From Microcoleus sp. (lineage in GTDB: Bacteria; Cyanobacteriota; Cyanobacteriia; Cyanobacteriales; Microcoleaceae), in NCBI GenBank assembly GCA_042408215.1, contig JAYFMW010000004.1, positions 1 to 28,213 of the forward strand: DNA of 28,213 nt. The letters run 5' to 3'. The notes beneath the pieces were generated by a model. That model did no database searches, had not been told where the DNA came from, and saw nothing but the letters and a program-made list of their open reading frames with translations. Position 1 is the first letter of the stretch. Each line of letters opens with the position of its first letter. Shown in pieces: positions 1,220 through 21,906 of the stretch. A program made the translations under genes and the position numbers.

Positions 1220-2020
1220 ATGAGTATTTCTAATTGTTTTGAAAGCTTGCGAAAGACCAACCAGTGTGCATTAATCCCTTTTATTACGGCGGGCGACCCC
1301 GACTTGGAGACAACGGCTAAAGCACTGCAAATTTTGGATGACAACGGTGCTGACGCGATCGAACTTGGTGTTCCCTATTCAGACCCCCTGGCTGACGGCC
1401 CAGTCATTCAAGCCGCTGCTACCAGGGCTTTGCAGCGGGGAACTCGCTTAGACGACGTGCTGGAAATGGTAGCGAAAGTTAGTCCGAATTTGCGATCGCC
1501 CATTATTCTGTTCACCTACTACAACCCGATTTTGTATCGAGGTATAGAAACCTTTTTGCAGCAAATCAAAAGTGCCGGTGTCCAGGGATTAGTTGTACCA
1601 GACTTGCCATTAGAAGAAGCCGAAAGTCTGATGGAACCAGCCAACAAATTAGGCATTGAACTAACATTATTAGTTGCTCCGACAAGTCCCAAAAGTCGCA
1701 TAGAAGCTATTGCTAAGCAGTCTCAAGGATTTATTTACTTAGTCAGCGTGACAGGGGTGACAGGAGTGCGCGAGGGCTTAGAAACGCGAGCCAAAGAGTT
1801 ACTGCAAGAACTTCGCAGCGTCACCGACAAACCCATCGGCATCGGTTTTGGTATCTCGACACCCGAACACGCTCGTCAAGTGAAAGAATGGGGTGCAGAT
1901 GCTGCTATTGTGGGCAGTGCTTTTGTTAAACGCTTAGCTGATGGCACTCCAGAACAGGGTTTAGAATCTATTGGCCAATTCTGCAAGAGTCTCAAAGCAG
2001 CAATTCAAAATAGCTGGTAA
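1220..2020 (+). CDS. trpA: Tryptophan synthase alpha subunit
   Basis: [42 protein letters not shown] and AIVGSA motifs. The last codons (S-W-stop) are supplied by the inserted IS end. Confidence 0.97.
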
Positions 2021-3421
2021 AAGTATAGTCATCTATTACATGACATGGGAGGCGTTGAATCCCTCCCCTTTCTTTTTTACTTCGAGCGGATTCAACCGCC
2101 TCGGCTGAACTACGCAGCTCTCTATCCCATCGCACAAGGCATTTGGGATTGCTTTTCTCAATATATTGTAAGACCCGTTAACATCAGCATTAATCAATCT
2201 ACCCCTCGATGTTTTGTACAATCCTCTCTTAATTCGTTGGCCACTCAATGTGACATCCAGGGCACCAATACTCCCGTATACAGGAATTGGATCTAAATTC
2301 AGAAAACTGGATTGAGAAGTATATGATTCTTCCTGTACAATCACTTTTATTCCAACCAATACAGCCTTATATTCCAACATCTCAATCAATCGAGCATGAG
2401 GAACTGTTACGAAGTTCTGATTAGTTTGTTTACCCAAATTAATCTGGTTTTTCCATTGTACATTTTTGCCAATTACCAGAGTCCCAATCTTTCGTTCTAT
2501 TAGAAGATTGATGATAAACCGACTGGTGTGGTGCAAGTAATTATCGACTTTTTGATTACGACAACGAGTGAGGCACCCAAGTCGAGATGATGTTTTGCGA
2601 CTTCCTTTTAGCTGAGATTGTAGATGGGCTTTGCGCTTGTTGTAAAACTGATTAATTGATTTCAATGGTCGCCCGTTAATCAGTAAAGGGACAAATACCG
2701 GCTGATTTGAAGTTAACGCCACTAAATTATTTAGCCCTAAATCAATACTAGCTACTAATTCTTTCTGATTTTCATCAATGGTGGACTCCGGCTCATCATA
2801 AATTACCTCAATTACATAAGAATCACACTTAGGAACTAACCTAACTTGGCAAATTTGCTCTGGTTTTACCTTGGTCTTAATCAAGATGTTAGTCCCGGAC
2901 AGATGAATAATTCCTTTCTTTAGTTGCTTGCTACTAATCGCCTGAATCGTATAAACGAGAATGTTTCGCCCTTTGACTTTATCTTTGTACTTCGGTAACT
3001 TCGGGCGACCCGTGAATCTCGCTGACTCAATATTGTAAGCTTTAACGGCTTCAAAAAATGATTTCCAATTCTTGTCCAGTATCATCAAGATTTGTTGACT
3101 TACCTTGGCTGGTAACGCCTTATATGCTGGATGAGATTTCATCAAACGGTTCATTTTGTTGTAATTAATATAACCCCATCCATAGACAAAACTCTGACGA
3201 ATAACGTAGTTAGCGACGTTGTAGAGATTTTTGGATTTAAAGGCTAATCCGTCAATTTCAACAAAACGATTCTCGGTGGATTTAATGATATGTCTTTCTG
3301 CTAGTTGCATTCAGACTCTCCATTTTTTAACAATCGCAATAATTATCTCAGTTGAGCCTTCTGACTATATGATACTACCATTGCTTACTACTGCTTACAA
3401 ACTTAATAAAGTTTTATAATA
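2009..3421 (-). mobile_element. Non-autonomous IS607-like (IS200/IS605/IS607 superfamily) element carrying only tnpB
   Basis: AATA (TATT on the element strand) at both ends (2009-2012, 3418-3421). Both ends are independently delimited by homology with the mini copy at 20695-20956. Removing the element restores trpA ...CAA AAT ACT TAG. No tnpA between the left end and the tnpB ATG. Left end has repeated TAAG(C/T) units. Confidence 0.85.
2036..3310 (-). CDS. tnpB: RNA-guided endonuclease TnpB (rearranged RuvC type)
   Basis: 424 aa; MQLAERHII start, SKNLYNxANY, PKLPKYK, RuvC-I SIDLGLNN, LVIGKN with the alternative glutamate motif QEESYTS, RuvC-III NADVNGSYNI; GGAGAG SD upstream. Confidence 0.93.
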   Translation of the reverse strand: MQLAERHIIKSTENRFVEIDGLAFKSKNLYNVANYVIRQSFVYGWGYINYNKMNRLMKSHPAYKALPAKVSQQILMILDKNWKSFFEAVKAYNIESARFTGRPKLPKYKDKVKGRNILVYTIQAISSKQLKKGIIHLSGTNILIKTKVKPEQICQVRLVPKCDSYVIEVIYDEPESTIDENQKELVASIDLGLNNLVALTSNQPVFVPLLINGRPLKSINQFYNKRKAHLQSQLKGSRKTSSRLGCLTRCRNQKVDNYLHHTSRFIINLLIERKIGTLVIGKNVQWKNQINLGKQTNQNFVTVPHARLIEMLEYKAVLVGIKVIVQEESYTSQSSFLNLDPIPVYGSIGALDVTLSGQRIKRGLYKTSRGRLINADVNGSYNILRKAIPNALCDGIESCVVQPRRLNPLEVKKKGEGFNASHVM

Positions 3422-3520
3422 CTTAGCAGCGGTGCAGGTAATTTCTGCCATTAGATAGATGCGTGCGTGCGTGCGATCGATATTGTGATAATTTCCGTTA
3501 AAGACATTGTTGTACTTGAG

Positions 3521-3999
3521 GTCAGGAACCCCGCCCTTAAGGGACGGGGCTTGCAAGAGTAATCAAGCAAGTCGTTCTGACCAGCTATCGCCTTCACTGG
3601 CTACGTTTTTTGAGTCACGACACTCCTTGAATGCGACGCTAGTTTTCCGCTCTGTCATCTGCAATTAAACAGTTTTAAGGTAACATAAACAGTGTTGCAG
3701 GTTTAAAAAGCACGCCAAACAAAGGCGCGCGCGAACTTTACCCGAAAGGGATTGGAGACAACCATATCTCCGAAGGAGGGGCAACCATACCCCTGGGCCT
3801 CGAAAGAGGTAGGCAACTAATTTTTTAAATCAAACAAAGCCATCCTAAAAAGTGATGCACTGAGCGAAACCGAAGTGATGGGGTTTGAAACCAATTTTCT
3901 GATAGATTTTGAAAATATTTATGGGATGCTAAAGCATCCCGTATCGTTTTTCCTCCCTAGGCTCAAGCCACTGGGTTTCCAATCTCCCGTGAGGCCTTT
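3521..3999 (+). ncRNA. HEARO/IscB-type omega-RNA scaffold in a small iscB-less element
   Basis: Starts GTCAGGAACCCCG..hairpin..CGGGGCTTG, then GACCAGCT, CTACGTT, GTCACGACAC, CTAGTT..GCTCTGTC, ATTAAACAG, CAGTGT, the ordered motifs of HEARO RNAs. Ends resembling IS200/605 termini at ~3880-3901 and ~3950-3999, the latter followed by ATGA. No ORF inside. Confidence 0.72.
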
Positions 4000-4302: not shown

Positions 4303-5007
4303 ATGAGCAGAATAACTGCGTTTATGAAAAAAATTCGATTGGGACAAATTTTAACAGTGTTTCTGGCGGGCATTTTAGTATTCGTTAGTACGGCCTGCAA
4401 CCGCGCTGATGTGATAGCAGGAAAGACTTCCGACAAAGTTAGAGAAGAAGTTCCAAGCGAGGCTGTAACTTCGCAATACAAAGGTGGTCAGAACCAATAT
4501 AGCGATGTCGATCCCAGAAATCCAAACATGACAAAAATAGAAGCAAAAGCAAAGATGCTGAAGGATGAAGCACAGCGTCGCATTGATACTAAAGCTAGCA
4601 GCAATGTGGGTGAAAACCTGCGGCGGGTAGCAGACGAAGGGCCTGATAAACTCAACCAAATTGGTCAAAAGGTAAAGGAAGATGTTCGCGCAGCTCAGGG
4701 GAATGCTGAGGAATTTGGCGAAAATACCAAACAAAACATTGCTAATCTCAAAGAGAACACTCGTGAAGCTGTGAAGGGAGCAAAAGAGATTGCTTCTGAA
4801 GCTGGCGAGGGAGCAAAAGAAAGAGCAGCAGAGGTAACAGATTCGCTGAAATATAACCTCAGCCAAGGCAAAGAAAATGTCAAAGATGCTGCGCGAGCCG
4901 TAAAATATAATGCTGAAGATGCTTCGGACAAGGTTCGCTCTCAAGTCAATCGAGATATTGACAAAACTCAGCGAGCCGCAGAGAGAGCAGTTGATGCTAT
5001 CCGCTAA
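4303..5007 (+). CDS. LEA-like, highly charged helical putative lipoprotein (DUF6658-like)
   Basis: Basic N-terminus, hydrophobic stretch and STAC lipobox; A/K/E/D-rich repeated helical body; GAAAGGAG SD upstream. Confidence 0.75.
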   Translation: MSRITAFMKKIRLGQILTVFLAGILVFVSTACNRADVIAGKTSDKVREEVPSEAVTSQYKGGQNQYSDVDPRNPNMTKIEAKAKMLKDEAQRRIDTKASSNVGENLRRVADEGPDKLNQIGQKVKEDVRAAQGNAEEFGENTKQNIANLKENTREAVKGAKEIASEAGEGAKERAAEVTDSLKYNLSQGKENVKDAARAVKYNAEDASDKVRSQVNRDIDKTQRAAERAVDAIR

Positions 5008-20182: not shown

Positions 20183-20694
20183 TTTTTTTCCTCGTCCACA
20201 AAATGTTAGTAGTCGATCGCCAGCCGTCAGCATCATAGATCTATTCTATGAACTAATTGCAGGAAGTATTAGCAGTAAATACATAATATTTACCCAACAT
20301 ATGCAGTAAATACATTTAATCAATGCAATTTCCGAATGTCACTTGAAAACTTCCTGCAATCTGTGCGTGCGATCGGTTTTCCTGGAAGTTTGATTCTTAC
20401 AATTTAGGTTGTAAAACACTATCAAACCAAGACTTATGTTAATACACTGATATTTAAATGAATGTATTTACCTATACAGCAGACAATCATTTGAGCACAG
20501 GTCAAAAAGGAGCAAGACCGCCAAAAACAAGCTCGTCAATTAATGCCGGGGCGTTAATATTTAATGATTAATCTTGAGCAACATTCTTTCTTGATATTAC
20601 CTTTGTACTTCCCTCAACCCCATCCCCCAACCCCATCCCCTTCTTGCCGTAAAGCCGATCGCCAGCATCTCCCAGTCCCGGTACAACATAGCCG

Positions 20695-20956
20695 TATTGT
20701 AAAACTTCATTAAGATTGTAAGCATCAATAGATAATGGTAGTATCATATAGTTAGAAGGATCGATTGATTAACGCCGATGTTAACGGGTCTTACAATATT
20801 TTGAGAAAAGCAATCCCAAATGCGTTTAGCACTCTTGATAGAGAGCTGCGTAGTTCAGCTTTAGAAGGGTTAATCCGCTCGAAGTGAAAGCGAAAGGGGA
20901 GGGACTTCATGCCTCCCACGGCACTGTAATAAATGACTATACTTTTACCAGCTATT
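20695..20956 (+). mobile_element. 262-bp mini element (internal deletion derivative of the tnpB IS) retaining the left end and predicted omega-RNA/right end
   Basis: 20694-20759 aligns to the reverse complement of 3357-3422; 20763-20956 aligns to the reverse complement of 2009-2199; TATT at both ends. Confidence 0.9.
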
Positions 20957-21335
20957 CGTCTCAACAATCGTCCACTGCGACTTCGCTCTGTTACCGTCTT
21001 AGTCACCCGAAACTCCAGAGAGAGTTCTCTGGTTACTAGGCTCTTCCTTTCCAGGAAGAGCCGGATTTTGGCCTCGGATCTTCCGGAACATTGTTTAGCT
21101 GGCATGAATCTTAGAAAGTCAAAGCAAAAAATCAATCTTTTTCGATGAATTCCACACCTCGAAAAAGCACTGAGCTAGGTACTAGCATTTAGATCATCCT
21201 CTAGGTTTTCCTAGTTTTTAAGATGAGAAAATAAGACTTATAATCTCCTAGTTTAACAGGGATTACCTAAATTTTGCTGATTCAATTGATCGGGGTGATT
21301 CTCACACAAAACTTAATTGATTAAGGAGAACATCC

Positions 21336-21906
21336 ATGAAGTTTGTAAAACTCTTACTGGCCGCAGCATTAATGTCTGCTTCGATTAGCCCCGCCTTGGC
21401 CCAACAAGTTCAAATTTTAGGCGCAAGCTATGGTGGTAGTGGTTGCCCCCGACAGATCCGCCAGTGTCAGCGTCAGCCCCGACGGTCAAGAACTAACCAT
21501 TCTATTTGATAAGTTTGCAGCCCTGGGAAATGTCTCAGCAGAAAAGCGGAAAAGCTGTAATCTGAGCATTCCGATCAAAGTACCCCAAGGCTTCCAGATT
21601 TCTCTCTACGATGCTGATTATCGTGGTTATGTCGCACCAAAAACCAGCGGAAATCTACGAGCAGAATACTTTTTCGCTGGCACCCGTGGCCCAGTTTTTT
21701 CCCGGACTTTCAACGGCGAAACTAACTATAACGTTCGAGACAGCTTAGCAACCGTAGCAGATGTTTGGTCTCGTTGCGGTGACAGTATAAATATGCGCGT
21801 GAATGCTGCGATGACTGCCAGTGGTGCTGGTATGGCCACCGTTGACTCTTTTGATTTGGCTCACCGTGGTTTGGTTTATCACATCAAATATCGCACCTGT
21901 CGCTAG
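21336..21906 (+). pseudogene. Secreted DUF4360 protein with +1 frameshift (pseudogene or sequencing error)
   Basis: AAGGAG SD, then ATG 21336: MKFVKLLLAAALMSASISPALAQQVQILGASYGGSGCP. One extra C in the C5 run 21446-21450, then DRSASVSVSPDG..RKSCNLSI..PQGFQ..DYRG..WSRCG. Confidence 0.8.

What the first reader, a model, noticed from the sequence alone, without database searches (positions are those of the whole stretch)
20695..20956. Protein-less mini omega-RNA element: a 262-bp sibling of the tnpB IS that could load a second guide onto TnpB in trans
Seen: this segment is the left end (~65 nt, matching rc 3357-3422) joined directly to the last ~195 nt (matching rc 2009-2199) of the tnpB element 17 kb away, and the junction lies at a GA(A/G)GG microhomology. 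The similarity stops exactly at ...GACTATACTTTTACCAGCTATT in both copies. The copies have diverged, but the stems GGGAGG..CCTCCC and GCTG..CAGC are kept while loops and linkers differ, and the tnpB reading frame is not preserved. Known: TnpB omega-RNAs overlap the tnpB 3' end and right end, and take the flanking DNA as guide. Inference: the deletion removed everything except what is needed for mobilisation and an omega-RNA, which is now placed directly behind the left-end promoter. This would be a three-part parasite system (TnpA elsewhere, tnpB-only IS, RNA-only mini element). Predicted guides: CGTCTCAACAATCGTCCACT (mini) and TTGAATTGCTGCTTTGAGAC (full).
Basis: partly seen in the sequence, partly recalled or inferred. 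Interest (0 to 1): 0.85.

Follow-up and report, generated by a model that had tools for sequence, protein, structure and literature searches.

The report
Guide-RNA-only mini transposon family
This is one copy of a roughly 258-base mobile element that has lost its nuclease gene but kept the whole guide-RNA region of its parent transposon, a kind of hitch-hiking element already noted in the literature.

Summary
Window 20698-20955 is the left end (about 62 nt) of a tnpB insertion sequence fused at a GAAGG microhomology to its last ~195 nt. It is not single-copy. The genome holds 17 copies with the same junction at 15 distinct sites, and a related genome has the precise empty site, so the mini element itself has moved.

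- The family is IS607-type. Rare autonomous copies carry a serine-recombinase tnpA, and this genome's only cognate copy is cut by a stop codon.
- The target is GTAT, not GTATT.
- The right end is ...GCTAT (20955), so both predicted guides shift by one base.
- The closest parent is another subfamily copy (94% identity), not the element 17 kb away (84%).

Four independent deletion junctions all keep 172-197 nt of the right end. An IS607 transposase studied elsewhere needs about 60 bp. All 23 consensus RNA pairs of full-length elements are intact in the window's mini.

These points favour a retained guide RNA used by TnpB in trans. Transcription, structure (almost no covariation) and loading are unproven. 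The idea is already in print for protein-less IS605 derivatives (Meers 2023). Verdict: a real, mobile new member of a known kind.

The parts
20694..20697 (+). Target / transposon-adjacent motif GTAT, flanking DNA and not part of the element
   Evidence: The empty site in G008 reads ...AGCC GTATT CGTCTC.... GTAT precedes 17 of the 18 left ends found in the 20 right-end fragments of this genome (C7 has GTCT), all 18 mini-element rows and all 47 metagenome left-end matches. Twenty-one paralogous unoccupied repeat copies read GTAT plus a flank-like 20-mer.
20698..20955 (+). The mini element (258 nt). Because TAT is shared by both junctions, the boundaries could slide by up to 3 nt.
20698..20759 (+). 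Part derived from the left end, ending in the GAAGG junction microhomology (20755-20759)
   Evidence: Matches the left ends of full elements.
20716..20744 (+). Candidate left-end promoter: TTGTAA, a 17-nt spacer, TAGTAT, with TGG just upstream of the -10 hexamer
   Evidence: My own reading. The hexamers and spacer length are constant while the spacer sequence differs between subfamilies. It scores 8 of 12, below the bar of the scan, so that tool did not call it.
20760..20955 (+). Part derived from the right end (the last ~195 nt of the parent). In full elements this stretch encodes the TnpB C-terminus from just before RuvC-III.
   Evidence: 94% identical to C29:97066 and 84% to window 2009-2207.
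20769..20797 (+). Second candidate promoter, inside the right-end part: TTAACG, 17 nt, TACAAT
   Evidence: Scan (9 of 12). That scan found 2 sites where shuffles give 1.3, so the support is weak.
20804..20955 (+). Predicted omega-RNA scaffold (~150 nt). It includes the long-range pairing AAAAG 20806-20810 with CTTTT 20942-20946, and the hairpin GGGAGG/CCTCCC at 20897-20917.
   Evidence: RNAalifold on 88 full-length right ends. All 23 pairs are intact in this copy. Column identity rises from about -150 onward. The size matches the 144-nt scaffold reported for the IS607 element ISXfa1 (passage read).
20956..20975 (+). Predicted guide, TCGTCTCAACAATCGTCCAC (flanking DNA)
   Evidence: By position after ...GCTAT. 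The empty site in G008 carries GTAT plus this sequence with one mismatch.
2010..3418 (-). Full tnpB-only element of the same family (1409 nt). TnpB is 2036-3310 (424 aa), GTAT lies at 3422-3419, and the guide starts at 2009 (TTTGAATTGC...).
   Evidence: NF040570, 171.7 bits against a cut-off of 100.

Best explanation
The segment is one copy of a non-autonomous, protein-less derivative of an IS607-family element (serine-recombinase tnpA plus tnpB).

Origin and spread. A microhomology-mediated internal deletion joined about 62 nt of the left end to the last ~195 nt. This removed tnpB but kept both recombination ends, the left-end promoter region and the complete guide-RNA (omega-RNA) module. The mini element was then moved in trans by a family TnpA next to GTAT sites and amplified to 17 copies.

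Most likely working (inferred, not shown). Transcription from the left-end promoter, or from a second promoter-like site inside the right-end part, runs through the ~150-nt scaffold into the flank. TnpB made by the 13 apparently intact family copies processes and binds this RNA. Its ~16-20-nt guide (TCGTCTC... here) then directs cutting of the GTAT-flanked empty site left after excision. Recombinational repair restores the mini element, which is the retention mechanism shown experimentally for IS605 and IS607 TnpB.

My odds: mobile deletion derivative about 0.97; IS607-type about 0.9; functional guide RNA used in trans about 0.55.
For: Copy number and mobility:
- Seventeen copies share one junction at 92.7-100% identity, at 15 distinct sites once two pairs with identical flanks are merged.
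- G008 has the exact empty site, with no target duplication beyond the shared TAT.
- Paralogous unoccupied GTAT sites exist for the copy at C6:340639.
- The same junction occurs in 6 of 79 genus genomes, this one included, and in 10 of 47 metagenome left-end matches.

IS607 type:
- Two of 80 relatives' loci have a 208-210-aa gene between the left end and tnpB. It matches NF033518, the IS607 family transposase, at 173 and 168 bits against a cut-off of 110.
- This genome has one such copy, C5:464643-466592.
- The left end shows no significant hairpin (DNA fold z-scores 0.03 and -0.37).

TnpB supply:
- Thirteen of 19 full copies have ORFs of at least 403 aa running through the RuvC-III motif.
- The window TnpB has D, E and D in the expected motifs and matches NF040570.
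- The closest parent, C29, carries the same scaffold variant blocks and a 409-aa ORF.

Retention of the RNA module:
- Four independent junction classes keep 195-197, 172-174, 188 and 182 nt of the right end.
- None of the 34 minis examined is shorter than 256 nt.
- A studied IS607 TnpA needs only 40 bp of left end and 60 bp of right end (passage read).

RNA features:
- The C-terminal tail is read in different frames in different copies, yet the DNA is conserved, which points to a constraint at the nucleotide level.
- All 23 consensus pairs are kept in the window copy and in 29 of 34 minis. The mean is 22.76 pairs for minis against 22.81 for 88 full elements.
Against: - No direct evidence of an RNA. 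The four RNA-library runs are contigs that break at the repeat boundaries and give no start, end or strand. The flank contigs overlap the element by only 30 nt, which is under the tool's bar for bridging.
- The structure is barely tested. The covariation term is -0.46 of -16.5 kcal/mol, and only 2 of 23 pairs show a compensatory change, each in a single sequence. Single-sequence folds are no better than shuffles (z -0.18 and -1.18).
- No Rfam family matches.
- The left-end promoter is my own reading and falls below the scan's threshold.
- The window copy carries variant blocks that remove the outer pairs of two helices I drew by eye (AUCCC/GGGAU and CGAGGCGG/CCGCUCG). These blocks also occur in full elements.
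- The only family-cognate tnpA in this genome is cut to 167 aa by an in-frame TGA, so present-day mobility is doubtful.
- The right-end length that this family's TnpA needs is unknown. The 60-bp figure comes from a Clostridium element.
- By its coordinates, one relative's copy (G008:C186) appears to have lost about 75 nt of the scaffold (sequence not inspected).
Confidence: 0.6

Rival explanations
1. It is a plain hitch-hiker. The mini element is moved in trans by TnpA, but its RNA part is a passive leftover. The ~170-197 nt of right end is kept either because this family's serine recombinase needs a long right end, or because deletions recur at microhomologies in that stretch. No guide RNA is made or used.
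For: - Both junctions that I read base by base (J1 and J4) sit at short microhomologies, GAAGG and GTTAA.
- The structure has almost no covariation support.
- No transcript has been shown.
- The copies are young (92.7-100% identical), so intact pairs may only reflect recency.
- The left end (TGTAAAAC, TTGTAAG) and right end (CTGTAAT, and GTAAAAG on the other strand) carry repeated TGTAA-like motifs. These could be recombinase sites spread over a longer right end (my reading).
Against: - Four independent deletions all stop within a 25-nt span, just upstream of the predicted scaffold. None of 34 minis is shorter.
- A studied IS607 TnpA needs only 60 bp of right end.
- The region is conserved as DNA across shifted reading frames.
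Confidence: 0.3
2. It is a co-opted regulatory element. The mini matters to the host mainly as a mobile promoter or small-RNA source that drives or modulates the neighbouring gene, here the DUF4360 gene at 21430-21906.
For: - Promoter-like sites on the plus strand point towards the downstream gene (and my reading of the left end).
- In three RNA libraries the contig covering the right flank starts 30 nt inside the element and runs on beyond 21300 (records 8, 12 and 22).
Against: - Contigs break at repeat edges by construction and carry no strand or start.
- The related genome G008 has the same flanking DNA without the element.
- The 15 insertion sites share only GTAT.
Confidence: 0.05
3. It is a decoy or competitor. 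Mini-element RNAs soak up TnpB and lower cutting for the full elements, or for the host.
For: Only that 19 scaffold-bearing minis (17 plus 2 of other junction classes) stand beside 13 apparently intact tnpB genes.
Against: Nothing specific supports it. It still requires the RNA to be made and bound, which is unproven.
Confidence: 0.03

Closest known systems
PATEs, the protein-less derivatives of IS200/IS605 elements, said to 'often encode omega-RNAs' acted on in trans by TnpB. Sources: Meers et al. 2023, bioRxiv 10.1101/2023.03.14.532601 (passages read); Dyall-Smith et al. 2011, PMC3119063 (passages read).
   Same: Both arise by core deletion of a tnpB element. Both amplify as a homogeneous family, depend on a transposase and a TnpB encoded elsewhere, and keep the RNA region.
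   Different: PATEs are defined by subterminal palindromes and Y1 TnpA. This family shows no significant end hairpins and its autonomous members carry a serine recombinase. The Haloquadratum PATEs can shrink to 52 bp, whereas none here is under 256 nt.
IS607-family elements with TnpB. Examples: the CboIStron and its laboratory mini-IS (Zedaveinyte et al. 2023, bioRxiv 10.1101/2023.11.20.567912, passages read) and ISXfa1 (bioRxiv 10.1101/2023.08.09.552727, passages read).
   Same: Serine-recombinase TnpA, no target duplication, the same short sequence at both junctions and the target, and a guide RNA at the tnpB 3' end or right end. The ISXfa1 scaffold is 144 nt against about 150 nt predicted here. 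TnpB-driven retention has been shown for IS607.
   Different: Those elements use GG cores and TGGG or GGG motifs, whereas this family uses GTAT with a shared (T)AT. The mini-IS there was a laboratory construct lacking both genes, whereas here it is a natural amplified family. The TnpB here has no cysteines in the usual zinc-finger stretch.
Protein-less IscB guide-RNA (HEARO) mini elements, and a TnpB-type mini, reported earlier by this scan in the same genome (e1-7816776, e1-7686973, e1-7816774).
   Same: Same genome and same logic: the guide-RNA scaffold is kept, the nuclease gene is lost, and the copy number is high.
   Different: Most of those belong to a different nuclease family (IscB) with the guide at the 5' side. 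I did not re-test those notes.
MITEs (miniature inverted-repeat transposable elements).
   Same: Short, non-coding, multicopy deletion derivatives moved in trans.
   Different: There are no terminal inverted repeats beyond a GTAAAA heptamer-like motif, and no target-site duplication.

Membership tests
IS607 family (serine-recombinase TnpA + TnpB) | Autonomous members encode a small serine recombinase with an N-terminal HTH, upstream of tnpB and between the same ends | tested here: met
   L119 817-1443 and L104 878-1507 match NF033518 at 173.4 and 168 bits (cut-off 110) and the Pfam Resolvase family. That is 2 of 80 loci. The copy in this genome, C5, is truncated to 167 aa but still scores 129.9 bits.
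IS607 family (serine-recombinase TnpA + TnpB) | No target-site duplication; the same short core sequence at the left junction, the right junction and the target | tested here: met
   The empty site reads GTATT|CGTC. The occupied site reads GTAT-T...GCTAT-T, with TAT shared. The right end ...GCTAT is found in 20 of 20 right ends of this genome.
IS607 family (serine-recombinase TnpA + TnpB) | Excision as a double-stranded circle by TnpA acting on these ends | not testable with these tools
   Needs an excision assay.
TnpB guide RNA (omega-RNA / reRNA) module | Lies at the tnpB 3' end and right end, on the tnpB strand, and ends at the transposon boundary so that the flank supplies the guide | tested here: met
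   The retained segment is the last ~195 nt of the parent, up to ...GCTAT.
TnpB guide RNA (omega-RNA / reRNA) module | Conserved secondary structure supported by covariation | tested here: inconclusive
   There are 23 consensus pairs, but the covariation term is -0.46 and 2 pairs carry one compensatory change each. Pairs are kept in 29 of 34 minis.
TnpB guide RNA (omega-RNA / reRNA) module | Transcribed, and bound or processed by TnpB | tested here: inconclusive
   Family sequence is present in 4 of 4 RNA libraries laid, but as contigs without start, end or strand.
TnpB guide RNA (omega-RNA / reRNA) module | Match to a curated RNA family | tested here: not met
   No Rfam hit at the gathering score, and none at E up to 10 on 20650-21000. 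The scan found no curated family that covers this scaffold.
PATE (palindrome-associated transposable element, IS200/IS605-derived) | Near-terminal palindromes like those of IS605 ends; mobilised by Y1 TnpA | tested here: not met
   DNA folds of the left ends have z-scores of 0.03 and -0.37. Twenty Y1 hits exist in the genome, but none lies inside an element of this family. The family's own TnpA is a serine recombinase.
MITE | Terminal inverted repeats and a target-site duplication | tested here: not met

The most novel reading that the evidence does not exclude
Protein-less minis are kept under selection as guide-RNA-only parasites of TnpB. Each copy supplies its own guide, so that a nuclease encoded elsewhere defends the copy against loss.

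A copy that sits in a dispersed repeat could go further. The copy at C6:340639 has a flank that matches 21 other GTAT-flanked repeat copies with 1-4 mismatches. It could direct cutting of those paralogous empty sites and be copied into them by repair. That would be RNA-guided spread needing no transposase, which would matter here because the family's own tnpA is broken.
Probability: 0.1. Interest if true: 0.8.

Novelty: new member of a known kind. Interest (0 to 1): 0.42.

Why it matters
If the mini RNAs are active, one TnpB pool serves dozens of guides that it does not encode. That makes TnpB a shared resource exploited by a third tier of parasites.

The family offers a natural experiment:
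- Four independent deletions mark the smallest unit that persists (about 170 nt of right end).
- Copies with and without the scaffold variants can be compared.
- An empty site in a close relative gives a ready target.

The result also shows that this kind of element exists for IS607-type transposons and not only for IS605. My four literature searches found the idea stated only for IS605-type PATEs. This is not a new principle.

Tried and rejected
- **Y1 TnpA as the mobiliser.** The genome has 20 PF01797 hits, but none lies inside an element of this family. The nearest, C3:426844, is 317 nt beyond a right end. I dropped this idea once the serine recombinase was found.
- **Hairpin ends.** DNA folds of the left ends were no better than shuffles (z 0.03 and -0.37). 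The full element's right end reached only z -1.76.
- **Rfam.** No family matched the element.
- **PDB by sequence.** No hit for TnpB, so I read the catalytic residues from motifs only.
- **Covariation by my own column-pair scan.** It was swamped by G-U noise and I discarded it.
- **RNA libraries.**
  - Family sequence is present, but the contigs break at 20694 and 20955/6, which are the repeat edges.
  - The loose ends are flanks of other copies.
  - The left flank has no cover in three runs, and summed depth rises towards the 3' end.
  - No contig bridges the right boundary with 31 nt on both sides.
- **Variant blocks as decay.** I first read the blocks in the window mini (CTCTTGAT, TTTAGAAGGG, GGCACTG) as decay that breaks the structure. 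I rejected this because the same blocks occur in full elements with long ORFs.
- **Off-target search for the window guide.** No other GTAT-preceded match with up to 2 mismatches in 16 nt.
- **** was an unfinished script with no result.

Full report
**1. What is there**

- Window 20698-20759 matches the left end of the tnpB element at rc 3348-3421 (82% over 74 nt).
- Window 20760-20955 matches its last ~200 nt at rc 2009-2207 (84% over 202 nt).
- The two parts meet in GAAGG (20755-20759), which both parental stretches resemble.
- No tnpB frame survives. The only ORF across the segment (20791-21135, minus strand, 114 aa) has no Pfam family.
- The full element's protein (2036-3310, 424 aa) matches Pfam OrfB_IS605 and Cas12f1-like_TNB and NCBIfam NF040570 'RNA-guided endonuclease TnpB' at 171.7 bits against a cut-off of 100.
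- It has Asp in SIDLGLNN, Glu in VQEESYTSQ and Asp in NADVNGSYNI, but no cysteines where TnpBs usually have a zinc finger (the motif assignment is my reading). A sequence search of the PDB gave nothing.

**2. Boundaries, target and mobility**

BLAST of the 262-nt segment against the window's own 7.36-Mb genome gave 55 alignments.
- Seventeen cover the whole segment at 92.7-100% identity.
- One more (C30:626563) covers it at 74%.
- Twenty cover only the right-end part.

Aligning the 18 minis with 40-nt flanks shows the following.
- All 17 share one junction.
- Similarity begins at GTAT(T) and ends at ...CAGCTAT.
- The base after ...GCTAT varies.
- Two pairs have identical flanks (C22:98601 with the window copy, and C28:280069 with C23:4342), which leaves 15 distinct sites.

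All 20 right ends end in ...GCTAT. Of the 18 left ends found, 15 read GTATT, and the others read GTATC, GTCTT and one more GTATT-like variant.

A search of 30 relatives with the element plus 500-nt flanks found both flanks abutting in G008:C551, at 98% and 96% identity. The alignment reads ...AGCC GTATT CGTCTC.... Comparison with the occupied site shows three things.
- The insertion lies beside GTAT.
- There is no target duplication.
- TAT is shared by the two junctions, which leaves a sliding ambiguity of up to 3 nt.

I therefore place the element at 20698-20955 and the guide from 20956.

A second, independent confirmation comes from the copy at C6:340639. It sits in a dispersed repeat. Twenty-one other copies of that repeat read GTAT followed by the flank-like 20-mer with 1-4 mismatches (3, 4, 5 and 9 sites respectively).

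**3. The family is IS607-type**

The genome has 20 hits to the Y1 transposase family, but none lies within an element of this family. The left ends do not fold into significant hairpins (z 0.03 and -0.37).

Among 80 loci fetched around TnpB relatives (77-87% identity, nearly all titled Microcoleus or related filamentous cyanobacteria), the left end usually lies about 110 nt before tnpB. In a few it lies some 660-730 nt before.
- In L119 that space holds a 208-aa gene with a Resolvase domain.
- L119 and L104 both match NF033518 'IS607 family transposase' (173.4 and 168 bits, cut-off 110). That is 2 of 80 loci by a motif scan.

This genome holds one such copy, C5:464643-466592, 90% identical to L119's protein. 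Its tnpA is cut to 167 aa by an in-frame TGA. Twenty-six other serine-recombinase hits are at most 41% identical (at most 39% for any hit longer than 70 residues).

The genome therefore has three tiers:
- one tnpA+tnpB copy, whose tnpA is apparently broken;
- 18 further tnpB-bearing copies;
- 19 minis (17 plus 2 of other junction classes).

Of the 19 tnpB-bearing copies, 13 have ORFs of at least 403 aa running through RuvC-III, and 6 are broken at 164 or 240 aa.

Passages I read in Zedaveinyte et al. (bioRxiv 10.1101/2023.11.20.567912) say that IS607 TnpA:
- works on double-stranded DNA through a circle;
- needs matching core dinucleotides at both ends and the target;
- leaves a scarless donor joint.

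For their Clostridium element it needs only 40 bp of left end and 60 bp of right end. They also show that its TnpB suppresses transposon loss by cutting the donor joint. The shared (T)AT here fits such a core, although the published cores are GG.

**4. Is the RNA module kept for a reason?**

(a) Independent deletions.
- Besides the 17-copy class (J1, right end kept 195-197 nt), this genome has C30:626562-626833 (J2, 172-174 nt kept) and C7:175429-175711 (J3, 188 nt kept).
- A metagenome scan with a left-end pattern gave 47 matches, of which 15 are minis: 10 of J1 size (256-258), 3 of J2 (269-271) and 2 of a further class J4 (274 nt, 182 nt kept).
- Of the other 32 matches, 10 are cut by contig ends.
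- All four right breakpoints fall within a 25-nt span. None of the 34 minis is shorter than 256 nt.
- If the 60-bp requirement carried over, much shorter minis should be possible. Haloquadratum PATEs shrink to 52 bp.

(b) Nucleotide rather than protein constraint.
- In an alignment of 88 distinct full-length right ends, blocks with +1 indels shift the reading frame.
- The C-terminal tails after NILRKAIPNA therefore differ completely between copies, yet column identity is 0.88-0.99 from about -150 to the end, against 0.84-0.86 upstream.

(c) Structure.
- RNAalifold gives 23 pairs. These include an invariant long-range AAAAG/CUUUU pairing that brackets about 140 nt and abuts the guide side, plus a GGGAGG/CCUCCC hairpin. 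This recalls the 'nexus' pairing next to the guide described for these RNAs.
- The covariation term is only -0.46 of -16.5 kcal/mol. Two pairs have one compensatory change each.
- The structure is therefore plausible but unproven. Single-sequence folds are not better than shuffles.
- All 23 pairs are intact in the window copy and in 29 of 34 minis.

(d) Variant blocks. The blocks in the window mini that looked structure-breaking also occur in full elements, including the closest parent C29:97066. That copy is 94% identical and has a 409-aa ORF. The blocks occur in all combinations among the minis, a sign of recombination between copies.

**5. Expression**

Two promoter candidates face the scaffold.
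- TTGTAA-17-TAGTAT with an upstream TG lies in the left end (20716-20744). This is my reading. The hexamers and spacing are constant while the spacer sequence differs between subfamilies, but it scores below the scan's threshold.
- TTAACG-17-TACAAT lies at 20769-20797. The scan called it, but the scan found 2 sites where shuffles give 1.3.

Thirteen of the 20 listed runs that hold part of the stretch are on record as RNA. Four from four studies were laid.
- All contain family sequence.
- They are contigs that break at the repeat edges.
- Their loose ends are the flanks of other copies.
- Nothing can be said about start, end, strand or level.

Transcription is therefore open.

**6. Comparison and novelty**

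The element works like a PATE carrying an omega-RNA. Meers et al. [quoted passage not shown] Dyall-Smith et al. 2011 described PATEs arising from IS605-type elements by core deletion and then amplifying (passages read).

It fails the defining PATE features, which are palindromic ends and Y1 TnpA. It belongs instead to IS607. For IS607, my four literature searches found only laboratory mini-IS constructs and no natural protein-less family.

The ISXfa1 scaffold of 144 nt plus a 17-nt guide matches the size predicted here. Earlier notes of this scan on the same genome report protein-less IscB-RNA minis and one TnpB-type mini. I did not re-test them. One HEARO RNA without an IscB gene does lie in this window.

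My recollection that standalone guide RNAs were noted in the first OMEGA paper (Altae-Tran 2021) is from memory only.

**7. Verdict**

- The deletion-derivative and three-tier picture is right.
- Several details are corrected.
- The key functional claim, a guide loaded in trans, is plausible (about 0.55) but untested.
- The concept is already in print.

Noticed in passing
window 3521-3741 (+): A HEARO RNA (the IscB guide-RNA family RF02033, 119.4 bits against a gathering score of 83) lies about 100 nt outside the left end of the tnpB element. No IscB gene follows; the next ORF, 4303-5007, is DUF6658. It is probably one of the protein-less IscB-RNA minis that earlier notes report in this genome.
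   Followed up: partly
window 1220-2020 (+) and 2010-2020: The full tnpB element is inserted in the last codons of trpA (Trp_syntA, E 1e-93). The trpA frame now ends 11 nt inside the element's right end, and the element's predicted guide (2009 downwards) lies in the trpA 3' coding sequence.
   Followed up: no
G000 C6:340639-340898 and 21 other sites: One mini sits in a dispersed repeat. Twenty-one unoccupied copies carry GTAT plus the 20-nt flank with 1-4 mismatches. All 12 copies that I printed differ from the guide at its second base (C rather than T). If the RNA is active, these are near-cognate self targets.
   Followed up: partly
G000 C22:97842-99101 vs window 20195-21455: A stretch of at least 1261 bp that includes the mini is 100% identical on another contig. 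It is either a real segmental duplication or an assembly duplicate. The same holds for the copies at C28:280069 and C23:4342.
   Followed up: no
alignment of minis (own genome), window 20825-20935: Three variant blocks occur in every combination among the 17 minis and also among full elements. This mosaic implies frequent recombination or gene conversion between copies.
   Followed up: partly
G000 C5:464643-466592 (L127): The only tnpA of this family in the genome has an in-frame TGA at codon 168 (167 aa instead of about 208), while its tnpB is open (403 aa).
   Followed up: partly
G000 C6:779691-785161: One family right end and its nearest left end are 5.5 kb apart, so that copy probably carries a large insertion. 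Earlier notes mention nested introns and IS607 elements in this genome.
   Followed up: no
window 2036-3310 (-): This TnpB subfamily has no cysteines in the stretch between the RuvC-II Glu and the RuvC-III Asp, where TnpBs normally have a CxxC...CxxC zinc finger.
   Followed up: no
G008:C186:25819-26006: In a relative, a copy with the same junction appears by its match coordinates to lack about 75 nt of the scaffold (query 616-692). This is a possible decayed mini.
   Followed up: no
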